Assembly: GCA_020059605.1 (NCBI GenBank) | Contig: JAGVBT010000069.1 | Span: 11,715-75,714, forward strand | Reading direction: 5' to 3' | DNA length: 64,000 nucleotides | From: Deltaproteobacteria bacterium | Lineage (GTDB): Bacteria; Desulfobacterota; BSN033; UBA1163 | Part shown: positions 26,243 to 56,646 of the stretch, piece after piece | Numbering within the stretch: the stretch's first letter is position 1 | Layout of the letters: every line of letters starts with the position of its first letter | Translations under genes and position numbers: made by a program | Notes under the pieces: generated by a model | Told to the model about the DNA's origin: nothing | Databases searched by the model: none | Seen by the model: the letters and a program-made list of their open reading frames with translations, nothing else

Positions 26243-26244
26243 TA

Positions 26245-34062: not shown

Positions 34063-34237
34063 TAAGTAAGACCTCCGTAACAAAACCGTTCAGCAAACCG
34101 ACTGGAATGGACTCAATAAACCTCAATAATTCGCTGCTTAGCAGGTTTGGCATAGGACCTTACTAATATTATCGAATTAAAATAATATTTATTACGACTT
34201 ACTATTTCTTATTCACAGAATGTTTAAAGTAACCTCT

Positions 34238-35836
34238 TTAATCTTCTCTCCCACACCTATATACATAATAAACAGGTTTATCGAATTTATCATAAATTGT
34301 CATTTCTTTACAAGTAATATTATTGTGAATTAGAAATGCATTAAAAACGTTTTTTCTACCAAAGTTCCCGCCTTGGTTGTCCTCAGCGTAAAAAACGTAT
34401 ACATTATCCTTATAATTGTGCATTTTATCCTTTAATTGATTAATAAAGAAATTTGAATTACCTGTATACCCGAATATCTCCTCAGTTGTGATTTTACCTT
34501 TAGAAACCAAAAACACTAATCTTGATATTCCCCAGCTACCCGCATAAATTTTGTGTATCTTATCATTTTCCAGGGTTCTGACCAATTTAAAAATAGAGGA
34601 TGACCACATCGGATTTTCATTTTGCGTTCTTAACGTATTGAAATAATTAATATTTATATTAGTATAAATCATTAGAAGCAGTAGGGTAATAGGAATATAT
34701 ATGTACTTTGGTAAAAAAAGTAAAAAATAAGAAAGAATCACAATTAACAAAGGTAGGACAATCAAATTGTGGAATGGACTTAAAGAACTTGAGGGAATTG
34801 ATTGTATAAATACAAAAATAGACATGGCATAAAAATATTCTATTTCTCTAATAGGTTTATTTTTAAATCGGCCCCACACCAACAATGCGAGCAACATCAA
34901 AAAACAGAAAGAAAAGAAGTAAAAAGGGAAAGAACTGCAAAACGTTCCTTCCACCTCACCGAAAGGATTTCCACAGTTAAAAAAAGCTTTAATTTGATTA
35001 GAGCGTGCATAAGTATTAGACATGAATGCGTTTAAAGGACTTGATTCTTTCAGAATGGATTCATTATTAAAAAAAATAAAAACATTGTAATGGCCGAGAA
35101 CATTAAAAAGAATGAAAAAAGATGATCCAAGCAGAAAGAAAAATATTCCCCCCATCAGTTTTTTAATGGATTTATAAAATATATAAAAAAGGTCCCGAAG
35201 CAGACTCTTATTCAGGCAGATGAGGTAGAGCGGAAATGCAATGATGAGCATAACCATCTCTAATCTTGTACTTAAGCCAAGGCCTGTGGCCAAACAGCCG
35301 AAATAAAAATGTCTCCAGTTTCTCTGAAGGTACCACCTGTGAAAAGAATAAAACATAAATCCAAGCAGAGTTAATCGTAGGATAAAATAAGGATCCGTCC
35401 TGCTGTAGAAAATATGGGAAGGCATAAAGGTCAGAAGGAGAACGCTTAAAAAGGCAACTTTCTTGCTTAAAAAAAGCTTCAAAAAAGCATAAAAAAATAT
35501 AATTGAAAGGCATGCATACAGGACACTAAGGCCCCTATAGGCGAAAGAATACTCCGTTAAATAAAGAAGTAACACTTGTGGATAAATAGGAAATCCTCCG
35601 CTTTGAGGTGAAATCCCTAATGGAAGTTTATACCCAAGGATGTCAATGTGCGGATAAGGCAGATGCGATACTTGAAGTTTTGTTTGAAGGGCCGCATAGG
35701 GTACATATATTTCATCAGCATAAGGACCTGGAGTGTTAAGGGAGTATATTCGAATCAGGAAAAAAGTTAACAATAATAATATAAAAAGTGGCTCTCTTTT
35801 TAAAAGTTCTTTTGCCTTTGAAGGAAAAGCGGGCAT
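34238..35836 (-). CDS. GT-C / PMT_2-like membrane glycosyltransferase
   Basis: 532 aa and about 11 hydrophobic segments. First-loop PGPYADEIYVPYAA. Soluble C-terminal tail. Confidence 0.55.
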   Translation of the reverse strand: MPAFPSKAKELLKREPLFILLLLTFFLIRIYSLNTPGPYADEIYVPYAALQTKLQVSHLPYPHIDILGYKLPLGISPQSGGFPIYPQVLLLYLTEYSFAYRGLSVLYACLSIIFFYAFLKLFLSKKVAFLSVLLLTFMPSHIFYSRTDPYFILRLTLLGFMFYSFHRWYLQRNWRHFYFGCLATGLGLSTRLEMVMLIIAFPLYLICLNKSLLRDLFYIFYKSIKKLMGGIFFFLLGSSFFILFNVLGHYNVFIFFNNESILKESSPLNAFMSNTYARSNQIKAFFNCGNPFGEVEGTFCSSFPFYFFSFCFLMLLALLVWGRFKNKPIREIEYFYAMSIFVFIQSIPSSSLSPFHNLIVLPLLIVILSYFLLFLPKYIYIPITLLLLMIYTNININYFNTLRTQNENPMWSSSIFKLVRTLENDKIHKIYAGSWGISRLVFLVSKGKITTEEIFGYTGNSNFFINQLKDKMHNYKDNVYVFYAEDNQGGNFGRKNVFNAFLIHNNITCKEMTIYDKFDKPVYYVYRCGRED

Positions 35837-35886
35837 TGGTTTCTAATGATTAAGAACCATAAAAGGGATTTTAAAAAAAACAACCT

Positions 35887-36252
35887 CTACGGTTCTACTG
35901 TAAAAACAAGACTGTTCGATTGGTTTCCGTTTTTAGTATCTAATAAATATAAATGAAATTGTCCAGGCTTCGAATAGAGCTCTTTGGGGACCAATGCGGT
36001 CAGACCATTCGGGCTTCCAAAGGTTGTATGTAATTGCGTTTCCCCCCATACAATTACGGTTGTTATTGTGGCATTCTCAGCTTTGGTCCATATAGCGGAA
36101 ACTCCTCCGGGTTGAACATTGAACCCCTGTCCGGCTTTCGTTTCGGCAGGACCGATTTCCTTTAACAAAGGTGGGGTCGCCTTTTTACATCCGGTCATCA
36201 TTACAACCATGATGAGCGCGAAAGCCCACAAAAGCATTTTATTCAGTTTCAT
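35887..36252 (-). CDS. Small lipoprotein with a single IPT/TIG (Ig-like) domain
   Basis: MKLNKMLLWAFALIMVVMMTGC has a lipobox. The mature part, GPAETKAGQGFNVQPGG...LTALVPKELYSKPGQFHLYLLD...SLVFTV, resembles an IPT/TIG fold. Start set at ATG 36252, after GGAGGG. Confidence 0.55.
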   Translation of the reverse strand: MKLNKMLLWAFALIMVVMMTGCKKATPPLLKEIGPAETKAGQGFNVQPGGVSAIWTKAENATITTVIVWGETQLHTTFGSPNGLTALVPKELYSKPGQFHLYLLDTKNGNQSNSLVFTVEP

Positions 36253-36268
36253 ATAAATTCCCTCCATT

Positions 36269-39200
36269 TCAGGTTTTGATTTCCCGATACCGATGGGGTT
36301 GCCAGGGGAATCCCCATTTTTCTTCAAAACGTCTTTTATTCTCATTAAAAATCTTCCTGTATTCTCCGGTCTCCTTCAGTTTATTGAAGGAGACCTCCCC
36401 AAAGTGATGGATAAAGACGTCCTCCGCGCACACCACACGGTACCTCTTAAGGCGGATGCGATGGGCAAAATCGTCATCCTCAAACATTCCGATCTGAAAT
36501 CGCTCGTCCAATAATCCGACTTCGTCGATTAATTTCCGCCTCATTGCAACACAATACATCGCCAGTACTTGGATGTCAAATCTCTTGGGAAGAAAGTGTT
36601 TTCTAATAAAATATTCTGAAAACCCTTCGATCTCCTTCAGCTCTTTATAGGGAACATCGATCTTTGATTCATTTCCTGAGAAATTGGTTACCGGTCCAAC
36701 TAAACCGATGGAATCGTCCTGTAAATGCCTAAGCAGTTTTGTTATCCACCCTCTTGTCAAAATGGTATCGTTGTTTAAAAAGATGATGTATTCCCCCGAA
36801 GACGCTAAGATTCCCTGATTATTCGCCTTTGGAAATCCTTCGTTTGTCGAATTGAATATGATCTGTACTTGAGGATGGCGAGAGGCCAGCTCATGCAGGT
36901 ACTCTTGTGTCCCGTCCTCTGAGTGGTTATCGACCAGGATGATCTCGTAATTTGGGTACTGAGACTTCAAAAAAATACTTTCAATACACATTTTAGTGTA
37001 ATACAGGTTATTAAAGGTCACAATGATAATGCTGACTTTTGGATAAATATTTCTAATCTCTGAAGTTAACGTAATATATCTAGCCTCCCAGGTATTCTTT
37101 TTGGCGAGCTCGATCCTTTCTGTTATTAGATTCTTATTATTTTCATGCAAGGCACTCTCTATATTTTTAAGAAAATCATTTTTGTCTTTAGCCAGATAAA
37201 GATATTTGGCATAAGGCAATAATTCGGGGATCTCGACAGAGACTACCTTCTTCCCCGAACTCATAAATTCGTAGAATTTAACAGGATTGGTGGCTTTGGT
37301 TAGTTTATTCAGCTTAAAGGGGATAATGCAAACATCAAACCAGTAAAGATATTTTGGCAGTTGGTCATAAGGTTTCTCTCCAAGAAAGTGAACATTGGAG
37401 ATTTTCTCTAATCTCGCAATATCAGATCCAAAGGTATGACCGATAAAAACAAAATTCCAGTCTTTTTTGCTGATAGCCAGATACTCGACAAGTTCATTGT
37501 CAAACCAGTCCGAGATGGCACCGTAATAGCCTATGATGGGCTTTTTCATTTCTTTTAAAAGGTCATTTGGAGGAAGATGGCTGAAGTGGTTAAAATCCGA
37601 GGCGTTGGGCAGAAAAAGGCATCGTTCGTTATGGTGTCTCATTTTTTCATAAAGAGATTGGGCAGTGGTGATGAGAAGGTCGCAACCCTTCGCGAGCAGC
37701 GTTTCCCGAGAGAGCATCGCTTCATCGTTTGTCGAAAACCCGCTATGTTCATCTATACAGTCATAAATAATTTTCCAACCCAATTCCTCTTTGATTCTCT
37801 GGGCGAGGGGTTGCCAAAAGGGAAGCTGAACGATTGTGATTGCTTCGACAATTCCTTTCTCTTCCCTCAGAGAATTAAGAGAAGCGGCCATCTTTTCCAG
37901 GCTTACCTCATCGATAGGGTCTTGATAGATGCTCAGCCGGGGATTTGCCTCAATGGCCACATCAAAAATACCTTCCTTAATCTCCCGGCATTGGAATTCC
38001 CCTCCCTGATTATCCAAGAATTTTGGATTGATATAAAAAACCCTTGCCCCATTTTGTGCAAATTGGGAGAGGATCTGCTGGGGTCTCTGGTATCTGAAGA
38101 ACCAGTCGATGATCGGCAGGCAGATGACATCGTATTGCCGGGCTATTTTTGAGTTATGATCTTGACTGGCAGAAAGAGAGGGAACCTCTTTATTTCCGGA
38201 CCCTCCTTGCTCTATTTGACTTATGGCGCTTCTATTTTCTTCTCCCTCCTTCTCTTTATTACTGTGAGAGGGTCCTATTTTGATAAACGGAAATACGGTG
38301 TTCATTAGCTTCACGGAGAAATTCCCTAATCTCCAGGTTCTCGTGGAAAGCATTGCGTTGAGCCTGGTGTCGAGGTTGACAATTTGGTTTTTTAGGTAGA
38401 ATACGGAAAGATCCCTTTTGGCCACCTCATCCGTATAATGCTGCTCCTGCTCCTTGTGTTTGGACAGAAGCGAGTGGATTTCGTCGTTTCTATCAGCGAT
38501 CTCTTTTGTATAATGCTGTTCCTGCTCCTTATACTGCTCAATAAGATCTTGAATCTTATCCTCTATCTTAAGGAGCTCCAGGTCCTTTTGTTGTATCTGT
38601 TTTTGTAGATTTTCCAAAATCCCCACTTGTTCAGAGAGTTTCTGAATCTGCTCGTCTCTCTGCTCTAACTCCCTATGGAGATGATCAATGGTGTGGTCCT
38701 TGAGCTTTTGAAAAATGGAATTGGATATATCAATCAGATGGGAACCTTGCAGGAACGTCTCGATCAATTGGTTTGTATCCGAAGCGATGGCGATAAAGTA
38801 TTTGGAAGGTTTGTTCTCTCTTGAAGTGAATTCGAACCCACTCTTTGACTTTCTGAGAACAGATTCTTCAAAGTAAACCTCTTTGCGGCTAAAGAGAGGT
38901 GATATATTCGAGCCAGAGAATACGTTTTGCCCGAAGAACCAGACAAATTCAAAATATCCCTTTAGGAAGCCTCTCAAATCATTAAAGTAAAACTCTTTGA
39001 TATGGAAAGGATTCTTGAAGTTAATCTCATCGGAGTAAACCTTTTTGTTCGGAGTGGATAAGACGAGGATACCATCGTTCTTCAATAGCCTCTTAATTTC
39101 TTTAAATAAGGCCCCATGGTTTTCAATATGCTCTATGGCCTCGAAACAAACGATGACGTCAAATATTCTCTCTCCCTCGATTGGAACCTCGAGGATAGAT

Positions 39201-39457
39201 CCCTGAATGAATTCGATATTTTCTTTGATATATTTGCTGCTGGCATGGTTAATGATATCTGGGGCTATGTCTACCCCTACCACATGGGAGGCATTCTCCG
39301 ATAAAAGCAAGCTCCCATAACCCTCGCCACAGGCCAAATCCAAAACTTTCTTCCCCGTCACAAACCGCTTACAGAAGGCATACCGATGCAAATGTTCGTA
39401 ATTCATCATGGGGTCATCATCCCAGGGCAAGAACCGCTCTCCCGTATCTTTCAGCAT
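36269..39457 (-). CDS. Multidomain protein: SAM methyltransferase - coiled coil - GT-B (TuaH-like) - GT2
   Basis: aa 1-190: [15 protein letters not shown]...VGVDI...FEAIEHIEN...[13 protein letters not shown]. aa ~248-372: heptad-rich, with the duplicated KEQEQHYT block. aa ~440-790: GT-B blocks. aa ~806-1062: [21 protein letters not shown]...[11 protein letters not shown]...FLNNDT...FEDDDF. Confidence 0.8.
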
Positions 39458-40953
39458 AGAACTTCCCTCATTTCTTCCATCGGGTCAGCCGTTAAAGAGA
39501 ATATTTTGCTGAGGGCGATGGTTAGTTCAGCCAGAGGCCATGATTGGCCTGATAGGTCAATGGGATTTTTTTCAAAGGGGTCCTTATTTAAGTCGTACAC
39601 TTCGAACTTTTTGGCATGGGTAATGTATTCTCTTAAAAATTCATGAAATACCTCCCCCTTCGATAACTCTCCTTCATACAGAAGCCCAGCCAAGACAGGA
39701 AACCTTCCGGGTTCTTCGAAGACATTCAACAAATTCCTCCGGAGGGTTTTCACAAAATCCAGAGGATTCGAATCAAAGACAGTTCCATCCAAACAATTTT
39801 CTGGGTTTCCATAGAGGAGGAATTTCTTGTTGCAAACTCTTATGCCTCTTTGCCACAAAAGATATTCGTCACTGACCGCCTCAAACAGACTCTTTCCCCG
39901 CCAGGTTTCACAATAGGCAAGAAACAAGGGGTTGGTTTCATTCTGACGGAGAAGAGAAGGCGCTAAACTATTCCCATCCGTTTTGAAATCCTTTTCCAAT
40001 CTATCCTGGAGAATTAATTCGATGAGCGTTGGGAATAGGTCCACAGTTGTGATCTGGTGATCTCTTAGGCTGTGTCCCCATTCAGGATGAAAAACCATAA
40101 GGGGGACCCGGATGACATCGTCGAACAATTCCCCCGCATGGGCAAAAAAAGAAGGGTCCTCGGAAATCACCCTTCCTTCCCCATGGTCTGAGAAAACAAA
40201 AATTAAGGAATCTTTTAATAAACCCAAGCAGTCCAGACTGTTGATGAACCGTCTAAATCTTCCTTGATCAAATTTGGTTACTCCCTTGACATAGAGGGGG
40301 AGGAGAAAATCGACACTGGGATGGACTTTTGTCCACATGTTGTTCCATGAATCATAAGGATTATTTATAGAAGGGGGACCCACTAATTTTAACTTTTTAT
40401 ACAAACCCTCCATCATTTCATAATAGTCATCATTACAACCCTTCAATGCCCCATATTCTGAAAAGAGAAATGGAGCGTGAACATCAAAGAAATGGACAAA
40501 GAGGAAGATGTGTTCCTCCTTGATCTGGTCCAAAAAGGATAAAAGGCCGTGGTCATCCCTCATAAAGAGGTGAGTAAACCCCCGATCTAAGTTCATCGGT
40601 TTAAAAAGGTGTTCGGTATCCGTAGCCAGAATGGTGTGATACCCGTGCGCTCGAAATACTTCTGCTAATGTGATGGCCTCTCTTTTGAGTTGACTATTAA
40701 AAAAAGTCCTTACGCCATGTTTCGGCGGGTAGAGGCCTGTCAGGATACTCGCATGGGAAGCAGTGGTGTAAGTATTGGTGCTTATCGCCTGCGTAAAACA
40801 GGTGCTCTTTTCTGCCAGATGATCCAGCGTTGGAGTTTCAAGATACTTCAGGACATCATGTTTTATTAGTTCTCTTTTGTCCGGCTGGTAGCCAATACAA
40901 TCGTATCGTAGATTGTCTATGGAGATCAAGATGATGTGTTTAACGTTCTTCAT
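39451..40953 (-). CDS. Cytoplasmic alkaline-phosphatase-superfamily enzyme (sulfatase/NPP-like, Thr in the nucleophile position)
   Basis: No signal peptide. [42 protein letters not shown] and VFSDHGEG are metal/nucleophile blocks. The CxPxR formylglycine motif is absent. Confidence 0.75.
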
Positions 40954-43109
40954 GCAAGGTACCCCAGGTCCTTTAATCGCTTCATCAGTTCCTCTTTTTC
41001 TTCATCCTCACGGTCGAGCTTGGAAGATTTTGGTCTCGTGTCATTGATACCTGGTTCCCCTCGCATGCCTTGAAATTGGTTACCATCTAAGGAAAGGTAT
41101 GGAATCTGATAAGTTCTTATGTAATCCCATAGGTCTTGTTCTGTAAAATGTGACAGAGGACAAATTCTTATCAGACCATTCCACTCATCGCAAGATCCCT
41201 CTCCTTCCCTAACCTCCTGGGCATCCAGCTTGCCCGCTACCATACATGCCTTGATCTTATATCTTTGAATGACCTTTTTTAAGGTTTTTTCATCCTTGAG
41301 GATGATCAGGTAAAGACCCCAATTTTGGGCCAAGGTATCACGAAATTCATAAACCTCTTTGGCTTCATTCAAGGTATCGAGATGAAACACCCTGAAGGGG
41401 ATTATTTCATGAAAGGTCTTTTTGATAAGATAAAGCAAAGCCGCTGTCTCTTTTTCCCTGGTGAAGAACACGCCGATATTCCATTTTCCGAATCTTTCCA
41501 AGGCATCTTTAATAATTTCGATGCTTTTTTCCGTTTTATCTCGAAGATTGTTGGTTGGCTGTTCTTTTAGTTCCCCCATTGGGGATAGCGCTAAGGGTGA
41601 ATGGTTACTTTCCAATAACTCACCTTTATTCAAATTTATAATTCTACCATAATAATAAGAAAACTCAACAGTGAGCAACGGGTCGGTTGTGGGATCTAAT
41701 GGATACATCTCGTCAGGGTCTTCCTTGAGCTGGAAGATCGAGAACTGTTTTCGGTTTTTGAACCATTCCGATTCCAAAAAAAGATTGAACACTTCCTTTT
41801 TAGAAGAACCATTTTCAAGGCGGTTTAAAAGTTTTTTATAGAGTGGATTTTTTTGGGGATCGAATGGGAAATATAAAAGACCCCTGAAAACAGCCTTCAA
41901 AAAATCTTCGTTCTCTAAATTGAAAACCCTCCCTTCGAGGAAATCTTCAGGCCTACCATAGACTAAATATTTTTTTTCTTCCGTTCTGACGCCCCTTTGC
42001 CACAGGAACCAATTCTCTTCAGAAAGGGGGTTATCCGGATAGGACATCCAAACCTCACTGTAGGCTTCCCGGTCCCCTGCCTCTTCACCCATGATTGTCG
42101 GCAAGAGTGTTTTCCCATCGAGGTAATAAGGGAGGTTGTCCTGCCACTTCTCAATTCCGGCCATCTCTAAAACCGTAGGAAACAAAGAGACCAGTGAAAC
42201 CTGGTCATCGATCGTTTCGGGCTTTAGATCCGGGTGCCTAAGGATCAAGGGGACCCTAATCACACTGTCGTGCAAAGACCCGGCATGCCCAAAATATGGG
42301 GACGAAGGTTCCTGGCTCTTTCCTTCCCCATGGTCGGAGAAGATGACGATCAGGGCATCCTCTGTGAGATGAAGTTCCCCCATTTTTTGAAAAAAGTGGC
42401 GAAATCGACCTTGATCGAATTTGCTTACCCCCTTTACATACAAGGGAAACAGGGTATGCATGTCGAATGCATATTTCTCGCAGAGGAGATTCCAGGCCTC
42501 ATAGTGTTTTCCTTCGGTCTTGATAGATTCGATATCGATATCCTCTCCTGTTTGTTCGTAAAGGTTCCGAAGATGTTCGTAAAAATCGTCATTATACCCC
42601 GGATGGATTTCATAATCTGAGTGGAGAAACGGGCAGTGAACATCCATGAAGTGAACCAACAGGAACATCCTTTTATCCCTGATTTGTTCCAGTAGAGAAA
42701 AGAGGCCATTATCGTTTGCCGTTTTAAAAACATGGTTAAACCCCCGCATTAAACCCGGGGACTTAAATAAGATTCCGTTATCAGAAGATAAGACTGTCTC
42801 AAATCCAAATTCTTTGAGGAGAGTTGGCATCGTGAGAGCCCGATCATCGAGGATAGATGGGCCGTGAAGCCTCACCTTATGCCTCGGGGGATAGAGGCCA
42901 GTTAAAACGCTCGCATGAGAAGCCATGGTATAGGTGCTGGTACTTATCGCCCGTGTAAAACATACACCTTTTTCGGCTATCCTATCCAGGGTAGAAGTGT
43001 TTAAATATTTTAAGCAATCAAATTTTATTAACTCTCGTTTGTCCGGTTGGTAGCCTATACAATCATACCTTAGGTTATCTATGGAGATTAGAATAATGTG
43101 TTTTGGCAC
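40950..43109 (-). CDS. Fusion protein: alkaline-phosphatase-superfamily domain + CysD/PAPS-reductase-like domain
   Basis: GTG start. aa 1-470 are paralogous to 39451-40953 ([30 protein letters not shown]). aa ~525-719: [20 protein letters not shown]...[20 protein letters not shown]...[16 protein letters not shown]...LKDLGYLA. Confidence 0.75.
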   Translation of the reverse strand: [719 protein letters not shown]

Positions 43110-43353: not shown

Positions 43354-45072
43354 ATGGTCGGGGATATTTTCGCTCCGAAACGAATCTGCGGACACGAGTT
43401 CTTCCTCCCTGTTATGGTCTTTTCGCTTTTTGTTCTGATCAAGTATCTAACTCTATTCAGCATTAATTTTGGACCTATCCTTTTTTTCGACGAACTCCTC
43501 TATAAGGAGCTGGCCCTCAAATTAGTTACAGAGCCGTTAAAAAACGGATATCCTTCAACTCATTTCCCGTTTGTCTATCCGTTGTTTCTTTCCCCCGCTT
43601 TTCTCTTCTCAGATTTTTACTCTGTGATGAAGATATTAAATATCTTGTATTCTTCGGCCATCGTATTTCCAGTCTGGATGATTGCCCGCCTTTTCAAACT
43701 CGGTCACACTGAAAGTGTTATAGTCATCGTGCTGGCCAGCCTCCTACCGTATCAGGTTGCACTTTCTCCAATGATCATGAGCGAGCTGTTATTTTTTCCT
43801 CTTTTGTATTTTGCCATTTACTTAACCCTGCAGATGCCAGCCCGGCGTCGTATCGCCTTTGCTTATCTCACAGGAATATTCATCGGCCTCCTGGTTGAAA
43901 CTCGTTATATCGCGATTCCCCTTGTGCCATCGTTTCTTTTTGTCTTTTCGCTGAAATTATTAGAGAAAAGCCACGGGGAAGCCAGGCATGATAAATTCAA
44001 ACAGCTCTTTTCCCTTCTCTTGGGTTTTGCTACGGTTTATCTGCCAAGATTAGGCGTGGGTTTGTTGTTAGGACATAAGATATTTTCCGTCGTCGGTTTC
44101 GCAACTCATAAAGTCATGGTGGAAACCGATCTAAACCGAATCCTGTTGTTTCACACATTTTATGTCTCATACATCATCTTGTCCTTTGCGCCTTACCTTT
44201 TCTGGTTGTTATTCTTTGGATCTAAATATCTTGCTCCTCCATGGACTTCTCCTGAGAAGCGTTTGTTTATTTTGATTATGGCCATCACAGCAACTCTTGT
44301 ATCCGTTGCATCCTGGCATTCGGCTAAAGCTTATTATAACACTCCCGATCTAAAGTATATGATTGGTCGATATGTTTTCTTCTCACTTCCTCTCGTCATT
44401 GTTTTTACCTTTGCAGGCCTGAAAAACTCTTGCGTGGTCAAGAGAAAAGGCACTGCCCTTTCTATCGGATCTTTATGGTTATCTGCTCTTACTTCAACGC
44501 TGCTGATCATGTTCTCGTATAAAATCCTTTTTGAAAACTATTTAATAGACCTCCCGGGTTACTTTGTAATGAGCCATATTTCCCCGGACGGAACAGCGTG
44601 GAGGCTGTTAAAATATCCTTATATGTATACCGTCTTGGGGGTGATTGTGCTTTATGCGCTGTATGTCACTGTAAAATGGCCCCCCAAAGCTTTGCCCTGG
44701 CTTGTATTTATCGTAACGGTATCTCTCTGCTTATGGGGGAACAAAGTTCTCTATAAACAGACGGTAGAATACAAGCGACGGGCGATTCACGCCTACTACC
44801 TGGCAGAAGGAGCAAAGGCATTTTTTAAACGAACAGGTATCGTTCCCGACATCTATTCGATAAAATTTCCCCACAGCTTTATTGAGCACTCTTTCAAGTT
44901 CTGGGAGGCTCCGATCAACAAAGTGATATTTCTTGGGGAAGAAACACAGTTTACATCGCCCGGGGTTTTACTGGATACAAAACAAGCCGCACATTATCCG
45001 CTGGTCCATAGCTACCAAACGGGTGGGAAACAATATTTTATCCAGCACATCATTGAGCGGGAGAACCGGTAA
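43354..45072 (+). CDS. GT-C / PMT_2-like membrane glycosyltransferase
   Basis: 572 aa and about 13 hydrophobic segments. First-loop PILFFDELLYKELALKL. Confidence 0.55.
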   Translation: MVGDIFAPKRICGHEFFLPVMVFSLFVLIKYLTLFSINFGPILFFDELLYKELALKLVTEPLKNGYPSTHFPFVYPLFLSPAFLFSDFYSVMKILNILYSSAIVFPVWMIARLFKLGHTESVIVIVLASLLPYQVALSPMIMSELLFFPLLYFAIYLTLQMPARRRIAFAYLTGIFIGLLVETRYIAIPLVPSFLFVFSLKLLEKSHGEARHDKFKQLFSLLLGFATVYLPRLGVGLLLGHKIFSVVGFATHKVMVETDLNRILLFHTFYVSYIILSFAPYLFWLLFFGSKYLAPPWTSPEKRLFILIMAITATLVSVASWHSAKAYYNTPDLKYMIGRYVFFSLPLVIVFTFAGLKNSCVVKRKGTALSIGSLWLSALTSTLLIMFSYKILFENYLIDLPGYFVMSHISPDGTAWRLLKYPYMYTVLGVIVLYALYVTVKWPPKALPWLVFIVTVSLCLWGNKVLYKQTVEYKRRAIHAYYLAEGAKAFFKRTGIVPDIYSIKFPHSFIEHSFKFWEAPINKVIFLGEETQFTSPGVLLDTKQAAHYPLVHSYQTGGKQYFIQHIIERENR

Positions 45073-45079
45073 GCAAAAT

Positions 45080-46411
45080 ATGAGCTGTGAAAGTATTAGC
45101 AAAGTTATCACCAGCGGTCTTTGCACCGGATGTGGGGTTTGCACGCTGTTTCAAGAGAATTCCAGCATGATTTACACCAGTCACGGTCCGCTTCCAAGCT
45201 TTGACGCCCCCCCGCCTGAAGATGAAGTAATCTTCAAGGCCTGTCCCGGGAAAGGGATTGACTACCCGGAACTATATTTGGCTCACTATGGCAGGCTCCC
45301 TGAGAATTACCTGCTTGGACCTCTCAAAGCCGTCAGAACCGGCTATGCATGTAATCAAGATATACGATACTCGGGAGCTTCAGGCGGCGTGATGACTCAG
45401 GTCCTGATCTATTTGCTCGAGTCAAAAAGAATTGACGGGGCGATACTTGCCAAACAAGGTGTACCAACGCCACTTGAAGCTCGACCGGTCATTGCCACGA
45501 CAAGAGAGGAGATCATCAGTTGTGCTCAATCGGTTTATATTCCCATATCGATGTTGGATAAATTGAGAGATCTCGAGCCAGGCAAACGTTATGCCTTAAC
45601 TTGTCTTCCCGACCAAGCCTCATCCCTAAGATTATTACAGCAACTCAACTTTCCGGCGGCAAAACAAATCAAGTATCTCTTAGGTCCTTACACCGGAACT
45701 GCCCTTGAGCCGGAAGCGATACGCTGTTTCCTTCGCTCATTCAAAGTGAGTGACCATGACCCTGTAAGATCTCTGAAATGGAGAGCCGGCGAGTGGCCTG
45801 GATGCCTGGAAATAGCGACCCGCTCGGGCAGAACCATTCGGTCACCTAAGGTTTACTACAACTTTTTAATCCCTTTTTTCATCACTGCCGCCTCCCTCAT
45901 GTCGATGGATTTTGCGAATGAATTTTGCGATCTTTCGGTAGGGGATGCCTGGTCGCCAAAGTTTGAGAGGGAAGGGGGGGGACACTCTGTTATCATAACC
46001 CGGTCGGAGGAAATGGAAGAGATTGTTTCAGACATGGAACAAATGGGCCTTCTTGCCTTAGAAAAAATAGACCCTCTTAACGCAAGCGAGATGCACGGTC
46101 ACATGATTGACTTCAAGAAACGCGGAGGTTATATACGAAACACGCTCAGGAAAGCTTTAGGAAAGGAAGCTCCGGATTTTGGCATGAGACCCAGTCTGCT
46201 GCCCTTATCGAGAATTGCCGTCGAGCTGGTTATCTCTTGCATCTTTTGGGTTGGAAAAAGCAGGATGATTCGCGCTCTTGTTCCCTTTATACCCCAGACC
46301 CTTTTAGGCCCTGGGTTTAATTGTCTTCGCTTAACCTGGAAGACGTTAAGCAAACCAACCAAGCGAAAAGGGCTGTCAAGATTAGTGATGCTGAGAACGA
46401 ACGAATCATGA
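45080..46411 (+). CDS. Coenzyme F420 hydrogenase/dehydrogenase beta-subunit-like (FrhB/FdhB family) FeS flavoprotein
   Basis: MSCESISKVITSGLCTGCGVCTLF..., GASGGVMTQVLIYLLESKRIDGAIL, LTCLPDQASSLRLL. Start set at ATG 45080, 8 nt after the upstream TAA. The listed ORF starts at 44933. Confidence 0.7.
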   Translation: MSCESISKVITSGLCTGCGVCTLFQENSSMIYTSHGPLPSFDAPPPEDEVIFKACPGKGIDYPELYLAHYGRLPENYLLGPLKAVRTGYACNQDIRYSGASGGVMTQVLIYLLESKRIDGAILAKQGVPTPLEARPVIATTREEIISCAQSVYIPISMLDKLRDLEPGKRYALTCLPDQASSLRLLQQLNFPAAKQIKYLLGPYTGTALEPEAIRCFLRSFKVSDHDPVRSLKWRAGEWPGCLEIATRSGRTIRSPKVYYNFLIPFFITAASLMSMDFANEFCDLSVGDAWSPKFEREGGGHSVIITRSEEMEEIVSDMEQMGLLALEKIDPLNASEMHGHMIDFKKRGGYIRNTLRKALGKEAPDFGMRPSLLPLSRIAVELVISCIFWVGKSRMIRALVPFIPQTLLGPGFNCLRLTWKTLSKPTKRKGLSRLVMLRTNES

Positions 46412-48069
46412 AATTTAATTTAAGTGACATCTTTTTACAACTCAACAGATTCAGCACATTTCTTCTCCCCCGGCTGCTAACCCAAATATGTCGCGATCCT
46501 CACTCAAGAGCCTATGGTTGTTGCGATAGAAACTGGTGGCATTATAAGATGAGAGACTTCCCTTCGATCATTTTGCAGCAGGGAGGTTACAGTGTTTACT
46601 GTGGTTCTGCACTTGGTGCTTACCGCGATAGAACTTCCGAGCTGAGGGAATTGGCTCACGCGAGTTGTCTCTTCTGGCGGAAAAGAGCGGTCAAACATGG
46701 AGCTTTTGAAGAATACTATCCTTGGGAGCAGGGATATCCTCCCCTTGCTTTTTCTACGTTGGCAGTTGCTAAAAGCGTTGCTTCCAATATCGTAGAACTT
46801 GAGGAAGTTTATGATGGCCTCGCTGTGGCCGCAAAACAACTGCTCAGCAGATTTGAAGCAAAGGCAGGAAACCAGCAGTGCGCCGGCACCGCCGCATTAT
46901 GTTGGCTTCACAAGCTCATTCCTGATCTTGTGCCAAGCGACCAATTGGAACTGGTGATCCAAAAAATACTTGGGTGCCAGCATGAAGATGGCTGGTATAT
47001 GGAGTATGGCGCCTCCGATTTGGGTTATCTCTCGGTTGCCATGGACTGTCTTTGGGATGCTTTTGACGCAACGCAAGATCGCCGTTTTATCGCATCTGCA
47101 GCCAAAGCCCTTAGCTTTATCTCCCTCTTTACTGCTTTCCCCAGCCGGGGGGCGGGGATGCACAACTCAAGAAACACGGATTACATTCTTCCCTATGGAA
47201 TTTCCAGGTTTCTCAAGGACCCTGAATCAGCCGAAGCGGCAGCTAATATTTTAAGGCGAGTTTATGATCGTCTTGAAGATCCGGCTCATTTTCTTTATGC
47301 CATCGATGATCGCTATTACTGCCACTATACTGCACACTCGTTGTGCAGGGCCCTGCCTTTGATTGGCTCGGCGAAAAATCGTGAATTCAAAGCTAATGAT
47401 GAAGGGTTGGAGGACAAGTTTATTTCAAGCACCGGGCATTTTTTTAAACACAATACCCCTGGTGGAAGCAAGGTGTTAGTGAGCGGAAAGAAGGGTGGTA
47501 TTTTTTCAATCTACACCTCCGGTCAATCTCTTTCAGACTACGGTTGGTTAGTTGTGAAGGGGAAAAAGTCCTGGGTCAGTCATTGGTGGATGGATCATTG
47601 GCGAATTGAACATGGCCAGAATCGCATTAAAATAAGCGGATTCTTGACACCTCATCAAACACAATTGAGCAACCCCCAAAAGCACATGATCTTGCGATTG
47701 TTCAGTTTATGTTTGGGCAAAGGTATCATCAACTTCCTAAAAGAAAAACTCATCTTTAAGAAGGGGCGTCGGTCAGGCCCGGTTTTTGAGCGTGAAATCA
47801 ATTTCATGCCGGATGCTTTATTGGTGATCGATCGCATTGAAATCCAGAAGGGCGGCACACTTCATCGCGCGCCCCGAGTTTCGCAACGCTATGTAGCAAG
47901 CGCCAACTCTTTTCATCCAGAAGATTTAAGTTTGTCTAATGCCTGTATTCATCTCAATGAGAATAAATATCAGGAAGGAGATTTACTTATAATTGAAACG
48001 AAATATGAGTTTAGAGCACGGGGCAACGGAAAAAATGAAACTGGTTATTCAGATTCCTTGTTACAATGA
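46408..48069 (+). CDS. Conserved-looking hypothetical protein, 553 aa, function unknown
   Basis: ATGA overlap with the upstream gene at 46408-46411. No TM segments or signal peptide. Cys/Trp-rich N-terminus (YGCCDRNWWHYKMRDFPS). No family recognised by eye. Confidence 0.5.
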   Translation: MKFNLSDIFLQLNRFSTFLLPRLLTQICRDPHSRAYGCCDRNWWHYKMRDFPSIILQQGGYSVYCGSALGAYRDRTSELRELAHASCLFWRKRAVKHGAFEEYYPWEQGYPPLAFSTLAVAKSVASNIVELEEVYDGLAVAAKQLLSRFEAKAGNQQCAGTAALCWLHKLIPDLVPSDQLELVIQKILGCQHEDGWYMEYGASDLGYLSVAMDCLWDAFDATQDRRFIASAAKALSFISLFTAFPSRGAGMHNSRNTDYILPYGISRFLKDPESAEAAANILRRVYDRLEDPAHFLYAIDDRYYCHYTAHSLCRALPLIGSAKNREFKANDEGLEDKFISSTGHFFKHNTPGGSKVLVSGKKGGIFSIYTSGQSLSDYGWLVVKGKKSWVSHWWMDHWRIEHGQNRIKISGFLTPHQTQLSNPQKHMILRLFSLCLGKGIINFLKEKLIFKKGRRSGPVFEREINFMPDALLVIDRIEIQKGGTLHRAPRVSQRYVASANSFHPEDLSLSNACIHLNENKYQEGDLLIIETKYEFRARGNGKNETGYSDSLLQ

Positions 48070-55102: not shown

Positions 55103-55858
55103 TCATCCATTTGGCGCCACGCTTTTTCTGTATTCTCCTATCACGGCCCCCGGTTTACCTTCGGCCGCCACTTCCCCGTGGTCAAGCCAGATCGCCCGGT
55201 CACAAATTTCTTCGATGGCCTGGAGGTTGTGGGATACCAAGACGGTGGTGACGCCGCCTTTGATCAGACGCAACATGGCGTCCTTTGATTTTTTCTGAAA
55301 CCCCTCATCCCCCACGGAAAGAACCTCGTCGATGATGAGAATTCTTGGATCGGTATGAATTGCCACCGAGAAAGCCAACCGGACATACATGCCGGTTGAG
55401 TAGGTCCTGACCGGGACATCCACAAATTCCCCCATTTCTGAGAAAGCGACAATCGACGATATTTTTTGAAGGATATCTTCTCTGGTCAGACCCAGCAGCA
55501 CCCCGTTTAAAATCACATTTTCCCTCCCGGTAAGGTCGGGATGAAAACCCCCGCCCAGCTCTAAAAGCGGGGTGACCCGGTCCATGATGTTAGCCCTGCC
55601 CTGTGACGGCAAAATGGTTCCCAGCATCAGGGACAGGAGCGTGCTTTTCCCTGCCCCATTTTTACCAATAATGCCGACGGATTCTCCCCTGTCTATCCTG
55701 AGCGTCACATCCCTGAGTGCATGAAAATGGCCGTCCCCTTTTGCTTGCCTCTTGATCCATTTCGGGAAATTGACAAAAAACTCCTTAAAGCCGGGCCTAT
55801 CCCTTTGGGAAGGGTATTTCTTCCAGACATGATCTATCTCGATCACCCTGTCGCTCAT
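55103..55858 (-). CDS. wzt: Polysaccharide/teichoic-acid-type ABC exporter ATP-binding protein (Wzt/TagH/KpsT class, NBD only)
   Basis: GIIGKNGAGKSTLLSLM (Walker A), YSTGMYVRLAFSVA (signature variant typical of this class), ILIIDEVLSVGDEGF (Walker B). Only 251 aa, so there is no C-terminal carbohydrate-binding domain. Confidence 0.9.
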   Translation of the reverse strand: MSDRVIEIDHVWKKYPSQRDRPGFKEFFVNFPKWIKRQAKGDGHFHALRDVTLRIDRGESVGIIGKNGAGKSTLLSLMLGTILPSQGRANIMDRVTPLLELGGGFHPDLTGRENVILNGVLLGLTREDILQKISSIVAFSEMGEFVDVPVRTYSTGMYVRLAFSVAIHTDPRILIIDEVLSVGDEGFQKKSKDAMLRLIKGGVTTVLVSHNLQAIEEICDRAIWLDHGEVAAEGKPGAVIGEYRKSVAPNG

Positions 55859-56646
55859 ATGACTTCATCCACACGTTTGCCGAGACTTCGGAATATGAGA
55901 AGCCCTGCAAAGAATACTGCCAGGGAACCCAGGAGGGCGATGGGAAGCCAACTCCAGCGAAAGATATTCGACATGAAGAGCTCACGCCATAAGGACATCA
56001 ATGAAGTTAAGGGGTTTGCATACATGAACCAGAAACGGTAGACCTCCGGAACGATATCAAACTGATAAACGATGGGAGTGATCCAGAAAAGAAGGGTTAG
56101 AAGAAAAGCGACGATAAATTGGAAATCCATGAAATAGACGTTAATCACCGAAACGGCAAGGGAGGCGCCCATCGTAAGGATAAATTGAATGAGGAGAAGA
56201 ATAGGGATTCCAATCAACCAGCTCATATCGGGAGTTTTATCGTAATAATAAACCAAAAAGGCAATGATCGGCAGAGAGAACAGGAAGTGGACTCCCTGGG
56301 AGAGAACGTTCGAGATGAGAAGGAAATGTTTCGGGAAGGGGAACTTTTTGATCAGGCTTTTATTCGAAATCAAGGAGACTGTGGAGGCATTGACCGAATT
56401 GGCAAACCATGTCCATGGGAATAGGGCGGAGAGAATGAAGAGTGGAAAATCTTTTATCTGAACCTTCAAAATGATCGTGAAGGCGATGTAAAAAACGAGG
56501 GCGAGCAAAAGCGGGTTGAGCAAGGACCATAAGATTCCGAGAGAGGTCCGTTTATACTGGAGCGTAATCTCCTTCTGGGTCAATATCCAGAGAAGGTCCA
56601 TCTCCCGCCGGAGATTATAAGGGATCATGATCCGGTGTCTTGTCAT
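55855..56646 (-). CDS. wzm: ABC-2 type polysaccharide exporter permease (Wzm/TagG class)
   Basis: 263 aa and 6 TM segments. LTQKEITLQYKRTSLGILWSLLNPLL is the family N-terminal block. ATGA overlap with wzt. Confidence 0.85.
   Translation of the reverse strand: MTRHRIMIPYNLRREMDLLWILTQKEITLQYKRTSLGILWSLLNPLLLALVFYIAFTIILKVQIKDFPLFILSALFPWTWFANSVNASTVSLISNKSLIKKFPFPKHFLLISNVLSQGVHFLFSLPIIAFLVYYYDKTPDMSWLIGIPILLLIQFILTMGASLAVSVINVYFMDFQFIVAFLLTLLFWITPIVYQFDIVPEVYRFWFMYANPLTSLMSLWRELFMSNIFRWSWLPIALLGSLAVFFAGLLIFRSLGKRVDEVI

What the first reader, a model, noticed from the sequence alone, without database searches (positions are those of the whole stretch)
40950..43109. Cytoplasmic alkaline-phosphatase-superfamily domain fused to a CysD/PAPS-reductase-like domain with a degenerate PP-loop
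The 719-aa product has no signal peptide or TM segment. Residues 1 to ~470 form a sulfatase/NPP-type core ([37 protein letters not shown]). Residues ~525-719 (nt 40950-41537) read like sulfate adenylyltransferase subunit 2 / PAPS-reductase-fold proteins. [51 protein letters not shown] corresponds, from my memory of E. coli CysD, to [71 protein letters not shown] corresponds to VFPLSNWTEQDIWQYI, and the terminal [13 protein letters not shown] to MELKKRQGYF. The PP-loop SxGKDS is replaced by TREKET (nt 41445-41468). The domain may therefore bind an adenine nucleotide such as APS, PAPS or ATP without doing canonical chemistry. I know of no characterised protein that joins these two folds. In a glycan locus the obvious hypothesis is sulfuryl or phosphoryl transfer onto the polymer through a covalent Thr intermediate. 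No cysN, cysC or sulfotransferase gene is visible in the window.
Basis: partly seen in the sequence, partly recalled or inferred. Interest (0 to 1): 0.8.

Follow-up and report, generated by a model that had tools for sequence, protein, structure and literature searches.

The report
Sulfatase-fold enzyme with dead CysD-like domain
This gene joins an intact sulfatase-fold enzyme that has a threonine active site to a burnt-out copy of a sulfate-activating (CysD-like) domain; it belongs to a widespread but unstudied two-part module in sugar-polymer gene clusters, and only this copy has a dead activating half.

Summary
ORF 40950-43109 (-) encodes a 719-aa cytoplasmic protein with an alkaline-phosphatase-superfamily/sulfatase domain (PF00884, 9e-27) and a C-terminal PAPS_reduct/CysD-like domain (PF01507, 5.8e-15; Foldseek top hit CysD 1zun).

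The fusion is natural. About 25 protein clusters share it, including a collinear ortholog in a Nitrospira MAG. In 38 of the 80 best GTDB loci, the C-domain family is fused to, next to, or within 3 kb of an AP-superfamily gene, always in glycan clusters.

In every other fusion the C-domain is the best-conserved part. It carries an intact TGGKDS PP-loop, CC...CxxC (APS-reductase-type Fe-S ligands), an Arg-loop and ERxGR. The window copy alone has lost all of these, including a 22-residue deletion. It keeps 39 of 77 family-conserved positions and shows 70-74 lineage-specific changes against 7-9 in its ortholog (p~1e-12). The N-domain keeps every invariant catalytic residue (D11, T61 at the formylglycine position, H65, H153, D156, H158, D259, H260, E262, H275).

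So this is a live Thr-nucleophile sulfatase-fold enzyme carrying a pseudoenzyme relic. It is not a special nucleotide-binding adaptation. The module's chemistry is uncharacterised. My best guess is adenylylation of sulfate followed by transfer to the glycan. No paper in the searchable library describes the fusion or the gene pair.

The parts
40950..43109 (-). Whole ORF, 719 aa, GTG start, TGA stop; sulfatase-fold / CysD-like fusion
41700..43109 (-). Residues 1-470: alkaline-phosphatase-superfamily (sulfatase-fold) catalytic domain plus its C-terminal subdomain and a DUF4214-like helical segment; all family-invariant residues are intact
   Evidence: PF00884 at 4-319; PDB sulfatase alignments; Foldseek; census of 122 homologs; pLDDT mostly above 90
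42897..42929 (-). T61[10 protein letters not shown]71: the sulfatase CxPSRxxxLTG signature with Thr in place of Cys/formylglycine and His in place of Arg
   Evidence: alignments to 9fo1 and 6hr5; T61 in 118/122 and H65 in 115/122 homologs
42324..42338 (-). S258-D259-H260-G261-E262 metal-binding motif (D-H pair)
   Evidence: D259 in 121/122 and H260 in 122/122
42636..42653 (-). H153-F-M-D156-V-H158 His/Asp cluster; H158 aligns with the sulfatase HxP histidine
41553..41612 (-). Residues 500-519: disordered interdomain linker
   Evidence: pLDDT below 50; variable-length region in alignment A1
40953..41549 (-). Residues 521-719: degenerate CysD/PAPS-reductase-fold domain (pseudoenzyme relic)
   Evidence: PF01507; 158 bits against the family profile versus 352-408 in other fusions; 39/77 conserved positions kept; relative-rate test p~1e-12; Foldseek 1zun and 2goy
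41445..41462 (-). TREKET in place of the PP-loop TGGKDS
41271..41282 (-). Junction (L610-K-K-V613) of a 22-residue in-frame deletion that removed the CC..LKT..PL loop
   Evidence: alignments A1 and A3
41208..41237 (-). [10 protein letters not shown] in place of the Arg-loop TG(I/V)RWDEQEAR
41046..41072 (-). QGMRGEPGI in place of YRSLGCxPCT (CxxC lost)
41007..41021 (-). KLDRE in place of ERxGR
40953..41003 (-). Retained C-terminal tail [17 protein letters not shown] (family motif ..KE.IM.RL+.LGYF)
39451..40953 (-). Downstream 500-aa paralog: sulfatase-fold domain only, all catalytic residues intact; its ATG overlaps the fusion's TGA (ATGA)
36269..39457 (-). Next gene in the same operon: 1062-aa methyltransferase-GT1-GT2 protein, collinear in the Nitrospira MAG ortholog locus
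55103..56646 (-). Wzt/Wzm-type ABC-2 glycan exporter of the locus
   Evidence: the same association appears in homolog loci

Best explanation
The gene encodes a cytoplasmic enzyme of the alkaline-phosphatase superfamily with a sulfatase fold. Its active site uses Thr61 where sulfatases carry formylglycine, surrounded by a His/Asp-rich, probably two-metal, centre. It works in the assembly of an ABC-exported glycan, together with a translationally coupled paralog and a methyltransferase-glycosyltransferase protein. It descends from a bifunctional module. In that module a compact CysD-like PP-loop domain with APS-reductase-type CC...CxxC Fe-S ligands adenylylates an oxyanion, most probably sulfate to give APS. 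The sulfatase-fold part then passes the activated group to the polymer through a covalent Thr intermediate. In this lineage the activating domain has lost every catalytic element and survives only as a folded, non-catalytic appendage that keeps the family's C-terminal LGY tail. The protein therefore cannot make its own donor. Shown: the architecture, the decay of the C-domain, the integrity of the N-domain, the recurrent fusion or adjacency of the two parts, and the glycan context. Inferred: transferase rather than hydrolase activity, the identity of the anion, and a scaffold role for the relic. My sub-confidences are: natural fusion 0.97, dead C-domain 0.9, N-domain active in glycan decoration 0.6, sulfate/APS chemistry in the intact module 0.3-0.35.
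For: Domains. Natural fusion: 23 aligned full-length homologs, a collinear ortholog locus in a Nitrospira MAG with fusion 59%, paralog 61% and MT-GT 62.5% identity, and 14 fusions among the 80 best GTDB loci. Dead C-domain: only 39/77 conserved columns kept against 94-100% in 21 of the 22 homologs (P0016: 72%); 158 bits against 352-408; Tajima test 70-74 against 7-9 unique changes with p~1e-12, while the N-domain and middle region are symmetric; all motifs lost; AF2 confidence collapses exactly at the lost loops. Relic kept as a polypeptide: 92-98% of neutral simulations acquire a stop codon, and the core helices, strands and tail are conserved. Live N-domain: ten catalytic positions are invariant in at least 115 of 122 homologs and intact in both window copies. 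Functional link between the parts: all four stand-alone C-domain genes examined sit next to an AP-superfamily gene, and 38/80 GTDB loci are fused, adjacent or within 3 kb. CysD-like reading: best PDB hit CysD at 2.5e-35, and CC/CxxC/K/ERxGR align with APS reductase 2goy. Relatives fused to EF-Tu-type GTPases mimic CysN-CysD. One Thermodesulfovibrio locus also has APS kinase, a CysQ-like gene and a sulfotransferase. Glycan context.
Against: No biochemical data exist for any member. Apart from L009, and a phmmer match to its APS kinase in L053, no sulfate-specific gene recurs near the module. The N-domain active site (Thr, a D-H metal pair, many His) resembles the phosphoryl and phosphodiester transferases of the superfamily (LtaS, EptA, NPP; comparison from my own knowledge) more than sulfatases. 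That favours phosphate-type chemistry. About half of the closest C-domain relatives (Thermoleophilia, Bipolaricaulota) are not next to any AP gene, so the C-domain's reaction may be more general. The open-frame argument is only p~0.02-0.08 and ignores indels. AF2 fold confidence for the relic is biased by the intact homologs in the alignment.
Confidence: 0.5

Rival explanations
1. One reading: the degenerate domain is a working ligand-binding module. It still binds an adenine nucleotide (APS, PAPS or ATP) and presents it to the Thr61 site, so the protein is a self-contained sulfuryl or phosphoryl transferase.
For: The Rossmann-like core, the L-D-T motif (residues 577-579) and K553 are kept. 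The frame is kept open. The fold is still recognised.
Against: Both PP-loop glycines are replaced by Arg and Glu, and Asp and Ser are changed. The Lys-bearing CC loop is deleted. The Arg-loop, CxxC and ERxGR are gone. These are the positions that align with the APS-reductase elements which, from my memory of the 2goy literature, contact the phosphosulfate and pyrophosphate. All other family members keep them. The acceleration is domain-wide, not confined to a few sites.
Confidence: 0.12
2. The module is not about sulfate. The intact C-domain adenylylates a phosphate- or phosphonate-type compound, as FMN adenylyltransferase does with FMN. The AP-fold domain then transfers the phospho-group to the glycan the way LtaS, EptA or NPP enzymes handle phosphodiesters. 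The window protein is the transferase half of that system.
For: The Thr nucleophile, D-H metal pair and His-rich site are typical of phosphoryl-transfer members of the superfamily (comparison from my own knowledge). FAD synthase PAPS domains are also good structural matches. A smaller NPP-type AP domain (PF01663) is an alternative partner of the same C-domain. Sulfatase genes are noted in some phosphonate clusters (PMC8942020).
Against: The C-domain profile is closer to CysD and APS reductase (2.5e-35, 1e-27) than to FMN adenylyltransferases (7e-9), and the human FAD synthase hits cover only part of it. The Fe-S ligands and ERxGR match APS reductase. GTPase fusions mimic CysN-CysD. No PEP mutase or small-molecule phosphate biosynthesis genes turned up in the Pfam scans of window ORFs or among the conserved neighbour clusters, which I assigned by eye.
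Confidence: 0.2
3. The sulfatase-fold domain is a hydrolase, not a transferase. It could trim a sulfate or phosphate ester on a cytoplasmic intermediate. In the intact module it could instead pull the unfavourable ATP-sulfurylase equilibrium by destroying PPi or the adenylylate.
For: The nearest structures are all hydrolases. The L009 locus has its own canonical sulfotransferase, APS kinase and CysQ-like gene, so there the CysD-like protein could simply feed APS to CysC.
Against: The domain is repeatedly fused to glycosyltransferases and a DUF4214 segment, and it sits in operons with GTs and Wzm/Wzt. That fits a polymer-directed enzyme. A dedicated pyrophosphatase of about 500 aa with two paralogs seems excessive. 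The window keeps two intact AP copies although the activating domain is dead.
Confidence: 0.13
4. The whole gene is decaying or redundant with its paralog, or the odd C-terminus is an assembly or sequencing artefact.
For: A second family member (P0016) also shows partial C-domain decay. Read coverage could not be checked.
Against: The N-domain and middle region evolve at the same rate as the ortholog's and keep all invariant residues. There is no stop or frameshift in 719 codons. The domain junction and the stop position match 22 homologs. The changes are point substitutions plus one in-frame deletion. The locus is collinear with an independent MAG.
Confidence: 0.05

Closest known systems
CysD, the small subunit of GTP-regulated ATP sulfurylase CysDN (PDB 1zun; PF01507)
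   Same: Same fold and the best sequence and structure match for the C-domain. The intact family shares the PP-loop (TGGKDS against SxGKDS), the LDT motif, the Lys loop, the Arg-loop GxRxDE, YRSLGC, ERxGR and the terminal GYF. Some relatives are fused to EF-Tu-type GTPases, like CysN-CysD.
   Different: The family domain is about 225 aa, against 325 aa for the 1zun chain (CysD NCBIfam profiles are 294-317 positions), and it is far below the CysD model cutoffs. It also carries CC...CxxC, which the aligned 1zun sequence lacks. In the window copy all catalytic motifs are lost, there is no CysN partner gene, and it scores 71 bits against a cutoff of 195.
Assimilatory Fe-S APS reductase (CysH-type, PDB 2goy)
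   Same: The intact family aligns over its whole length (1e-27). CC, CxxC, the loop Lys and ER.GR fall on the corresponding 2goy positions.
   Different: The family has a true ATP-type PP-loop and ends in LGYF, with no ECGLH-type C-terminal catalytic Cys, so it is not a reductase by the known mechanism (mechanism from my own knowledge). The window copy has none of the four Cys.
Type I (formylglycine) sulfatases and phosphonate monoester hydrolases (PF00884; for example 8di0, 2w8s, 2vqr)
   Same: Same fold including the C-terminal subdomain. The signature segment, the HxP histidine, the SDHG metal motif and the RVPL strand all align.
   Different: Cys/Ser-x-Pro-x-Arg is replaced by Thr-Met-Ala-Ser-His, so formylglycine cannot form. 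The conserved Lys is replaced by His275. There are extra invariant H153 and D156. The protein is cytoplasmic with no signal peptide.
Thr-nucleophile transferases of the same superfamily: LtaS, EptA/MCR-1, OpgB, NPP
   Same: A Thr nucleophile with an Asp/His metal pair, and group transfer to a cell-envelope polymer through a covalent Thr intermediate (known mechanism, from my own knowledge). Weak NCBIfam matches to LtaS and EptA.
   Different: Those enzymes are membrane-anchored, act outside the cytoplasm and use phospholipid donors. This family is soluble and cytoplasmic, and it is paired with an adenylylating domain. Sequence and structure are closer to sulfatases than to LtaS or EptA.
Database family 'phosphoadenosine phosphosulfate reductase family protein' (for example Desulfovirgula thermocuniculi P0022; stand-alone ~228-aa proteins such as Thermodesulfovibrio P0271)
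   Same: The window protein is a diverged member of this annotated but uncharacterised group, with the same architecture and the same locus type.
   Different: It is the only member seen with a fully degenerate C-domain. The database name implies a reductase activity, which the family's own sequence features do not support.

Membership tests
CysD (sulfate adenylyltransferase subunit 2) | Intact PP-loop SxGKDS for ATP alpha-beta cleavage | tested here: not met
   The window has TREKET. The rest of the fusion family has TGGKDS.
CysD (sulfate adenylyltransferase subunit 2) | Score above the curated NCBIfam/TIGRFAM CysD cutoffs | tested here: not met
   NF003587 scores 71 bits against a cutoff of 195; TIGR02039 scores 56 against 397. 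Intact stand-alone relatives also fall below, at 84-135 against 195.
CysD (sulfate adenylyltransferase subunit 2) | Partner GTPase CysN encoded alongside | tested here: not met
   No GTP_EFTU gene was found among the window ORFs scanned with Pfam. GTPase fusions exist only in other relatives.
CysD (sulfate adenylyltransferase subunit 2) | ATP + sulfate -> APS + PPi activity | not testable with these tools
   Needs an enzyme assay on an intact homolog and on the window protein.
APS/PAPS reductase (CysH) | C-terminal catalytic Cys in an ECG(L/I)H motif | tested here: not met
   The family ends in ...RLRELGYF and the window in ...LKDLGYLA, with no Cys in the tail.
APS/PAPS reductase (CysH) | CC...CxxC [4Fe-4S] ligands (APS-specific branch) | tested here: not met
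   Present in the intact family and aligned to 2goy. All four Cys are absent in the window, two by deletion and two replaced by Gly.
PAPS_reduct superfamily fold (PF01507) | Profile match above the gathering score, and structural match | tested here: met
   56-61 bits against a cutoff of 22.5; Foldseek 1zun, 2goy and 8rom with probability 1.0.
Type I sulfatase (formylglycine-dependent) | (C/S)-x-P-x-R signature providing formylglycine | tested here: not met
   T61-M-A-S-H65 occupies that position. Thr is there in 118/122 family members.
Type I sulfatase (formylglycine-dependent) | Sulfatase fold and PF00884 match | tested here: met
   PF00884 at 9e-27; Foldseek E about 1e-20 to S1 sulfatases.
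Alkaline-phosphatase-superfamily Thr-nucleophile transferases (LtaS/EptA type) | Thr nucleophile plus an Asp/His metal site | tested here: met
   D11, T61, D259 and H260 are invariant. That these residues coordinate metal is inferred from homology, not shown.
Alkaline-phosphatase-superfamily Thr-nucleophile transferases (LtaS/EptA type) | N-terminal membrane domain, extracytoplasmic catalytic domain, lipid donor | tested here: not met
   No TM segment or signal peptide.
Sulfatase-fold + compact CysD-like module (uncharacterised; defined here) | N-domain with the invariant D/T/H/H/D/H/DH/E/H set, fused or adjacent to a ~225-aa PP-loop/CC...CxxC domain ending in LGYF, in a glycan locus | tested here: met
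   Architecture and context are met, but the C-domain is a degenerate derivative.

The most novel reading that the evidence does not exclude
The intact module is a self-contained, PAPS-independent glycan sulfation machine. A compact Fe-S CysD-like domain makes APS, with no CysN in most members. A sulfatase-fold enzyme 'running in reverse' takes the sulfuryl group onto Thr and passes it to a cytoplasmic polysaccharide before ABC export. The window copy, the partly decayed P0016 and the many N-only relatives that keep just the LGYF tail would then record repeated loss of the activating half.
Probability: 0.2. Interest if true: 0.85.

Novelty: new variant of a known kind. Interest (0 to 1): 0.58.

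Why it matters
Known bacterial glycan sulfation uses PAPS-dependent sulfotransferases, and known Thr-nucleophile transferases of the alkaline phosphatase superfamily work outside the cytoplasm on lipid donors. A cytoplasmic sulfatase-fold enzyme genetically welded to an adenylylating PP-loop/Fe-S domain implies an undescribed way to decorate polysaccharides with an anionic group. The C-domain family was found in 466 GTDB species genomes across many bacterial phyla and some archaea, and close to half of its 80 closest loci carry the pairing. The window copy is useful as a natural experiment. It separates the two halves functionally, with a live transferase-like half and a dead activating half. 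It also gives a clear, datable example of a catalytic domain turning into a pseudoenzyme appendage. The database name 'PAPS reductase family protein' is probably misleading for all of these proteins.

Tried and rejected
1. Looked for a second, intact copy of the C-domain, and for APS kinase, sulfotransferase or CysQ, in the window: none.

2. Looked for sulfate-specific genes as conserved neighbours of the module in 38 loci: only glycan-assembly genes recur. An APS kinase homolog appears in just one of the 80 GTDB loci, plus L009.

3. Tested whether the 'none' loci pair with the NPP-type mini-AP domain: only two archaeal loci do. The rest have unrelated neighbours.

4. Six literature searches for the fusion, the gene pair, a CysD-like Fe-S protein, or cytoplasmic sulfatase-like transferases found nothing relevant. 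The DndC reappraisal and the ANME sulfur paper do not cover this family.

5. Considered a frameshift or chimera: rejected on codon-level inspection and homolog collinearity. Reads were not available.

6. Considered anSME-type maturation, because some relatives are fused to radical SAM domains and the window has a SPASM radical SAM gene at 17475-18449. The rSAM-fused forms also carry Thr, not Cys or Ser, at the nucleophile position in the segments printed. The idea was not pursued further.

7. dN/dS between the window and its ortholog was not attempted, because at 59% protein identity synonymous sites are saturated. A relative-rate test and a neutral simulation were used instead.

8. My first site census was off by one residue because of alignment trimming. 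It was redone.

Full report
**1. The observation**

The ORF 40950..43109 on the minus strand is real. It is 719 codons long, starts at GTG 43109 after a purine-rich AAAGAAAG, and ends at a TGA that overlaps the ATG of the next gene (ATGA). The public gene call for the same sequence (P0001, 658 aa) starts at Met62. Twenty-two homologs align from residue 1 and the metal ligand Asp11 lies upstream of Met62, so the longer reading is correct.

Pfam finds Sulfatase PF00884 at residues 4-319 (9e-27) and PAPS_reduct PF01507 in the C-terminal 200 residues (5.8e-15, or 2.2e-16 for the isolated domain). NCBIfam ranks CysD models first for the C-terminus, far below their cutoffs.

An AlphaFold model of the whole protein has mean pLDDT 83.2. 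It shows a confident N-domain, a disordered linker at residues 500-519 and a folded C-domain with two low-confidence stretches. Foldseek matches the N-domain to S1 sulfatases and phosphonate monoester hydrolases. A separate model of the C-domain matches CysD 1zun first, then APS reductase 2goy and FAD-synthase PAPS domains.

There is no hydrophobic segment, and a signal peptide cannot fit before Asp11. The PP-loop position reads TREKET, encoded by ACC AGG GAA AAA GAG ACA. Each codon is one substitution from a TGGKDS codon.

**2. The fusion is natural and recurrent**

A search of 5.8 billion proteins returned about 25 clusters with the same PF00884+PF01507 architecture at 29-59% identity. Sources include a Nitrospira MAG, Desulfovirgula thermocuniculi (a RefSeq entry named 'PAPS reductase family protein') and many metagenomes.

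The Nitrospira MAG locus is collinear with the window: fusion (59% identity), 500-aa paralog (61%), methyltransferase-GT protein (62.5%), and Wzm/Wzt nearby. This excludes a chimeric assembly as far as sequence comparison can. Read coverage could not be examined.

**3. The window copy is the odd one out**

In the alignment of 23 fusion proteins, every homolog has:
- an intact TGGKDS PP-loop (TGNKDS in P0016)
- a CCxxLKTxPL loop
- an Arg-loop, TG(I/V)RWDEQEAR
- YRSLGCxPCT
- ERxGRxQDKE..LGYF

The window protein has TREKET, a 22-residue in-frame deletion of the CC loop, [18 protein letters not shown] and KLDRE in their place.

The decay can be quantified in four ways:
- The window keeps 39 of the 77 C-domain columns that are at least 90% conserved in the other 22 proteins. 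Those proteins keep 94-100%, except P0016 at 72%. In the N-domain the window keeps 65 of 70.
- Against a profile of intact C-domains the window scores 158 bits. Other fusions score 352-408 and P0016 scores 254.
- The C-domain is normally the best-conserved part of these proteins (52-75% identity between P0002 and the others, against 34-50% for the N-domain). In the window this is reversed, at 47% against 72%.
- A Tajima relative-rate test against the ortholog P0002 with three outgroups gives 70-74 unique changes on the window branch against 7-9 on the other (p about 1e-12) for the C-domain. The N-domain (14-23 against 18-21) and the middle region are symmetric.

The AF2 low-confidence stretches coincide with the lost loops. 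The 'degenerate PP-loop' is therefore one symptom of lineage-specific loss of the whole catalytic apparatus.

Even so, 199 codons remain open and end within one residue of the family's stop. In neutral-substitution simulations starting from the ortholog's DNA, 92-98% of runs with 50-70 amino-acid changes acquire a stop codon. The secondary-structure core and the C-terminal tail are conserved. I infer, with modest confidence, that the relic is retained as a folded, non-catalytic domain.

**4. The N-domain is intact and is not a classical sulfatase**

Alignment with solved sulfatases places Thr61 exactly at the Cys/formylglycine position: CxPSRxxxLTG becomes T61[10 protein letters not shown]. 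His65 replaces the Arg, His158 aligns with the conserved HxP histidine, D259-H260 with the metal pair, and His275 with the conserved Lys.

Across 122 family members, D11, T61, H65, H153, D156, H158, D259, H260, E262 and H275 are each present in at least 115. Both window copies, the fusion and the downstream paralog, have all ten.

Thr cannot become formylglycine. From my own knowledge of the superfamily, a Thr nucleophile with an Asp/His metal site is the hallmark of its transferases and phosphodiesterases (LtaS, EptA, NPP). Unlike those, this family is soluble and cytoplasmic.

**5. What the intact C-domain is**

A profile of 13 intact C-domains hits CysD 1zun at 2.5e-35 and the Fe-S APS reductase 2goy at 1e-27 over its full length. 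In the 2goy alignment the CC pair, the loop Lys, the CxxC pair and ER.GR all fall on matching residues. From memory of the APS-reductase literature, these are the cluster ligands and the phosphosulfate-contacting residues. FMN adenylyltransferases score much lower (7e-9).

The family has the ATP-type PP-loop of CysD and the CysD-like ...GYF end. It lacks the ECGLH catalytic cysteine of the reductases. It is only about 225 aa and falls below every curated CysD and CysH cutoff.

In a library of 1.84 billion representatives, 279 proteins match at E<1e-30. Many are stand-alone proteins of 200-250 aa. Others are fusions to the NPP-type AP domain PF01663, and some are fusions to EF-Tu-type GTPases, an arrangement that mimics CysN-CysD. 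One of the GTPase fusions keeps CC and CxxC. I read the family as a compact CysD-like adenylyltransferase with an APS-reductase-type Fe-S site. Sulfate is the most likely substrate, but this is inference.

**6. The two halves are a conserved module**

Thousands of stand-alone proteins of about 228 aa are 55-65% identical to the fusion's C-domain. All four that I looked up lie next to an AP-superfamily gene:
- Thermodesulfovibrio sp. 3462-1: PAPS_reduct, methyltransferase, then Sulfatase. A sulfotransferase, a CysQ-like phosphatase and an APS kinase lie a few kb upstream.
- A metagenome contig: PAPS_reduct followed by a Sulfatase-radical-SAM fusion.
- A Dissulfurispiraceae MAG: Wzm/Wzt, then PAPS_reduct, then a Sulfatase-GT1 fusion.
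- An Altiarchaeales contig: an NPP-like gene overlapping PAPS_reduct.

A scan of GTDB species genomes found 466 hits. Among the best 80 loci, 14 are fusions, 17 have the sulfatase-like gene within 300 nt on the same strand, 5 have it within 3 kb, and 2 archaeal loci have the NPP-type partner. That makes 38 of 80. The remaining loci (Thermoleophilia, Bipolaricaulota, Fraserbacteria) have other neighbours.

Conserved neighbours of the paired loci are GT1/GT4, epimerases, GT2, Wzz, Wza, flippases, methyltransferases and Wzt. Nothing specific to sulfate recurs. The fusion homologs themselves sit beside Wzm/Wzt or MacB-type exporters, NDP-sugar enzymes and methyltransferases.

The window is likewise one long glycan locus. 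It has GT2, GT4 and several GT-C/PMT_2 proteins, a pyruvyl transferase, radical SAM enzymes, an initiating Bac_transf, a flippase and Wzm/Wzt. It has no second C-domain copy and no APS kinase, sulfotransferase or CysQ.

**7. Mechanism proposed**

Shown by the analysis:
- a live Thr-type sulfatase-fold domain
- a dead CysD-like domain
- a conserved genetic coupling of the two in glycan loci

Inferred:
- In the intact module the PP-loop/Fe-S domain adenylylates an oxyanion, with sulfate to APS as my preferred candidate. Sulfate needs no extra biosynthetic genes, and the domain is closest to CysD and APS reductase.
- The sulfatase-fold domain then takes the activated group onto Thr and passes it to the growing or finished polymer in the cytoplasm, before ABC export.
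- In the window lineage the activating half became dispensable and decayed, while the AP half and its paralog stayed under selection. The donor may be made elsewhere in the genome, or the enzyme may have changed donor.

Rivals:
- The relic is a working nucleotide-binding module. This is unlikely, because the phosphate- and sulfate-contacting elements are gone.
- The chemistry is phosphate- or phosphonate-type rather than sulfate. This is a serious rival, given the Thr/His-rich active site and the NPP-type alternative partner.
- The AP domain has a hydrolytic role.
- The gene is decaying as a whole, or the sequence is an artefact. This is unlikely.

**8. Comparison with what is known, and novelty**

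The protein fails the membership tests for CysD (PP-loop, cutoff, CysN partner), for APS/PAPS reductase (no catalytic Cys, no cluster ligands), for formylglycine sulfatases (no C/S-x-P-x-R) and for LtaS/EptA-type enzymes (no membrane domain). It does meet the fold-level tests for PF01507 and PF00884.

It is a diverged member of a family that databases label 'PAPS reductase family protein' or 'sulfatase-like hydrolase/transferase', for which I found no functional study. The searchable library is limited to open-access papers and preprints, so absence there is not proof of absence.

I rate it a new variant of known kinds. Its interest is moderate to good, mostly because of the module it points to and the clean pseudoenzyme case it provides.

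Noticed in passing
window 40953-41003 (-); also P0074, P0054, P0076 and others: The last ~15 residues of the CysD-like domain ([DE][KE]E.I[MV]..L[KR].LGY[FL]) are retained in the window's dead domain. They also end at least 32 of 95 N-only sulfatase-like relatives that have no other trace of the C-domain. In an unsupported NJ tree of N-domains these tail-bearing forms interleave with the fusions. This suggests either repeated loss of the CysD-like core with the tail retained, or a shared docking peptide. The window's own 500-aa paralog lacks the tail.
   Followed up: partly
P0016 (718 aa, homolog): A second, independent and milder decay of the C-domain: TGNKDS, the Arg-loop changed to LREDDQAAT, and ERxGR lost, while CC and CxxC are kept. 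It retains 72% of conserved positions and scores 254 bits.
   Followed up: partly
L009 (Thermodesulfovibrio sp. 3462-1, CP144374) 4285-12928: One glycan locus holds a sulfotransferase, a CysQ-like inositol-phosphatase-family gene, an APS kinase, the stand-alone CysD-like protein, a methyltransferase and the sulfatase-like gene. No sat or cysN was called within the 20.7-kb locus. This is the only context seen that links the module directly to PAPS-type sulfation.
   Followed up: partly
P0029, P0044, P0062, P0073; L010 10709-13609: The same sulfatase-fold family occurs fused to a radical SAM domain (966-1007 aa), preceded by the stand-alone CysD-like gene. These forms carry Thr, not Cys or Ser, at the formylglycine position, so a classical anSME maturase role is doubtful.
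   Followed up: no
window 17475-18449 (+) and 10806-12506 (+), 13824-14948 (+): The upstream part of the glycan locus encodes three radical SAM enzymes: one with a SPASM domain, one B12-binding and one plain. It also has an AMP-binding-like protein (12535-13812) and a pyruvyl transferase (14988-16253). Their substrates are unknown.
   Followed up: no
window about 26000-36000: GC content drops to 0.33-0.40, against 0.43-0.53 elsewhere, over a block of minus-strand genes: LPG_synthase_TM-like, three large GT-C/PMT_2 proteins of 532-864 aa, and a GT2. This may be a laterally acquired segment inside the glycan locus.
   Followed up: no
window 43109 versus Met62 codon (about 42924-42926): The public gene call for this protein (P0001, 658 aa) starts at Met62. 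That cuts off the first 61 residues, including the metal ligand Asp11 and the nucleophile Thr61. Homologs support the GTG start at 43109.
   Followed up: yes
window 53090-53563 (-): A HepT-like toxin domain protein (PF20797, 2e-28) lies between the glycan genes and the ABC exporter. HepT/MNT pairs were also seen beside one homolog locus (L007). A cognate antitoxin was not looked for.
   Followed up: no
window 44933-46411 (+) and 46321-48069 (+): An FrhB/FdhB-like (F420 hydrogenase beta-type) protein is followed by a 582-aa ORF with no Pfam match. They sit close to, and are transcribed divergently from, the fusion operon. Their function is unknown.
   Followed up: no
L013-L092 'none' group (for example L076 8026-9771): In 17 loci, apparently mostly Thermoleophilia/Actinomycetota, the stand-alone CysD-like gene follows a ~596-aa ATPase-like protein (motif GGYHGKSTLL). 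In 12 Bipolaricaulota-type loci it precedes a ~743-aa polytopic membrane protein. The C-domain family therefore has other conserved partners besides AP-fold enzymes.
   Followed up: no
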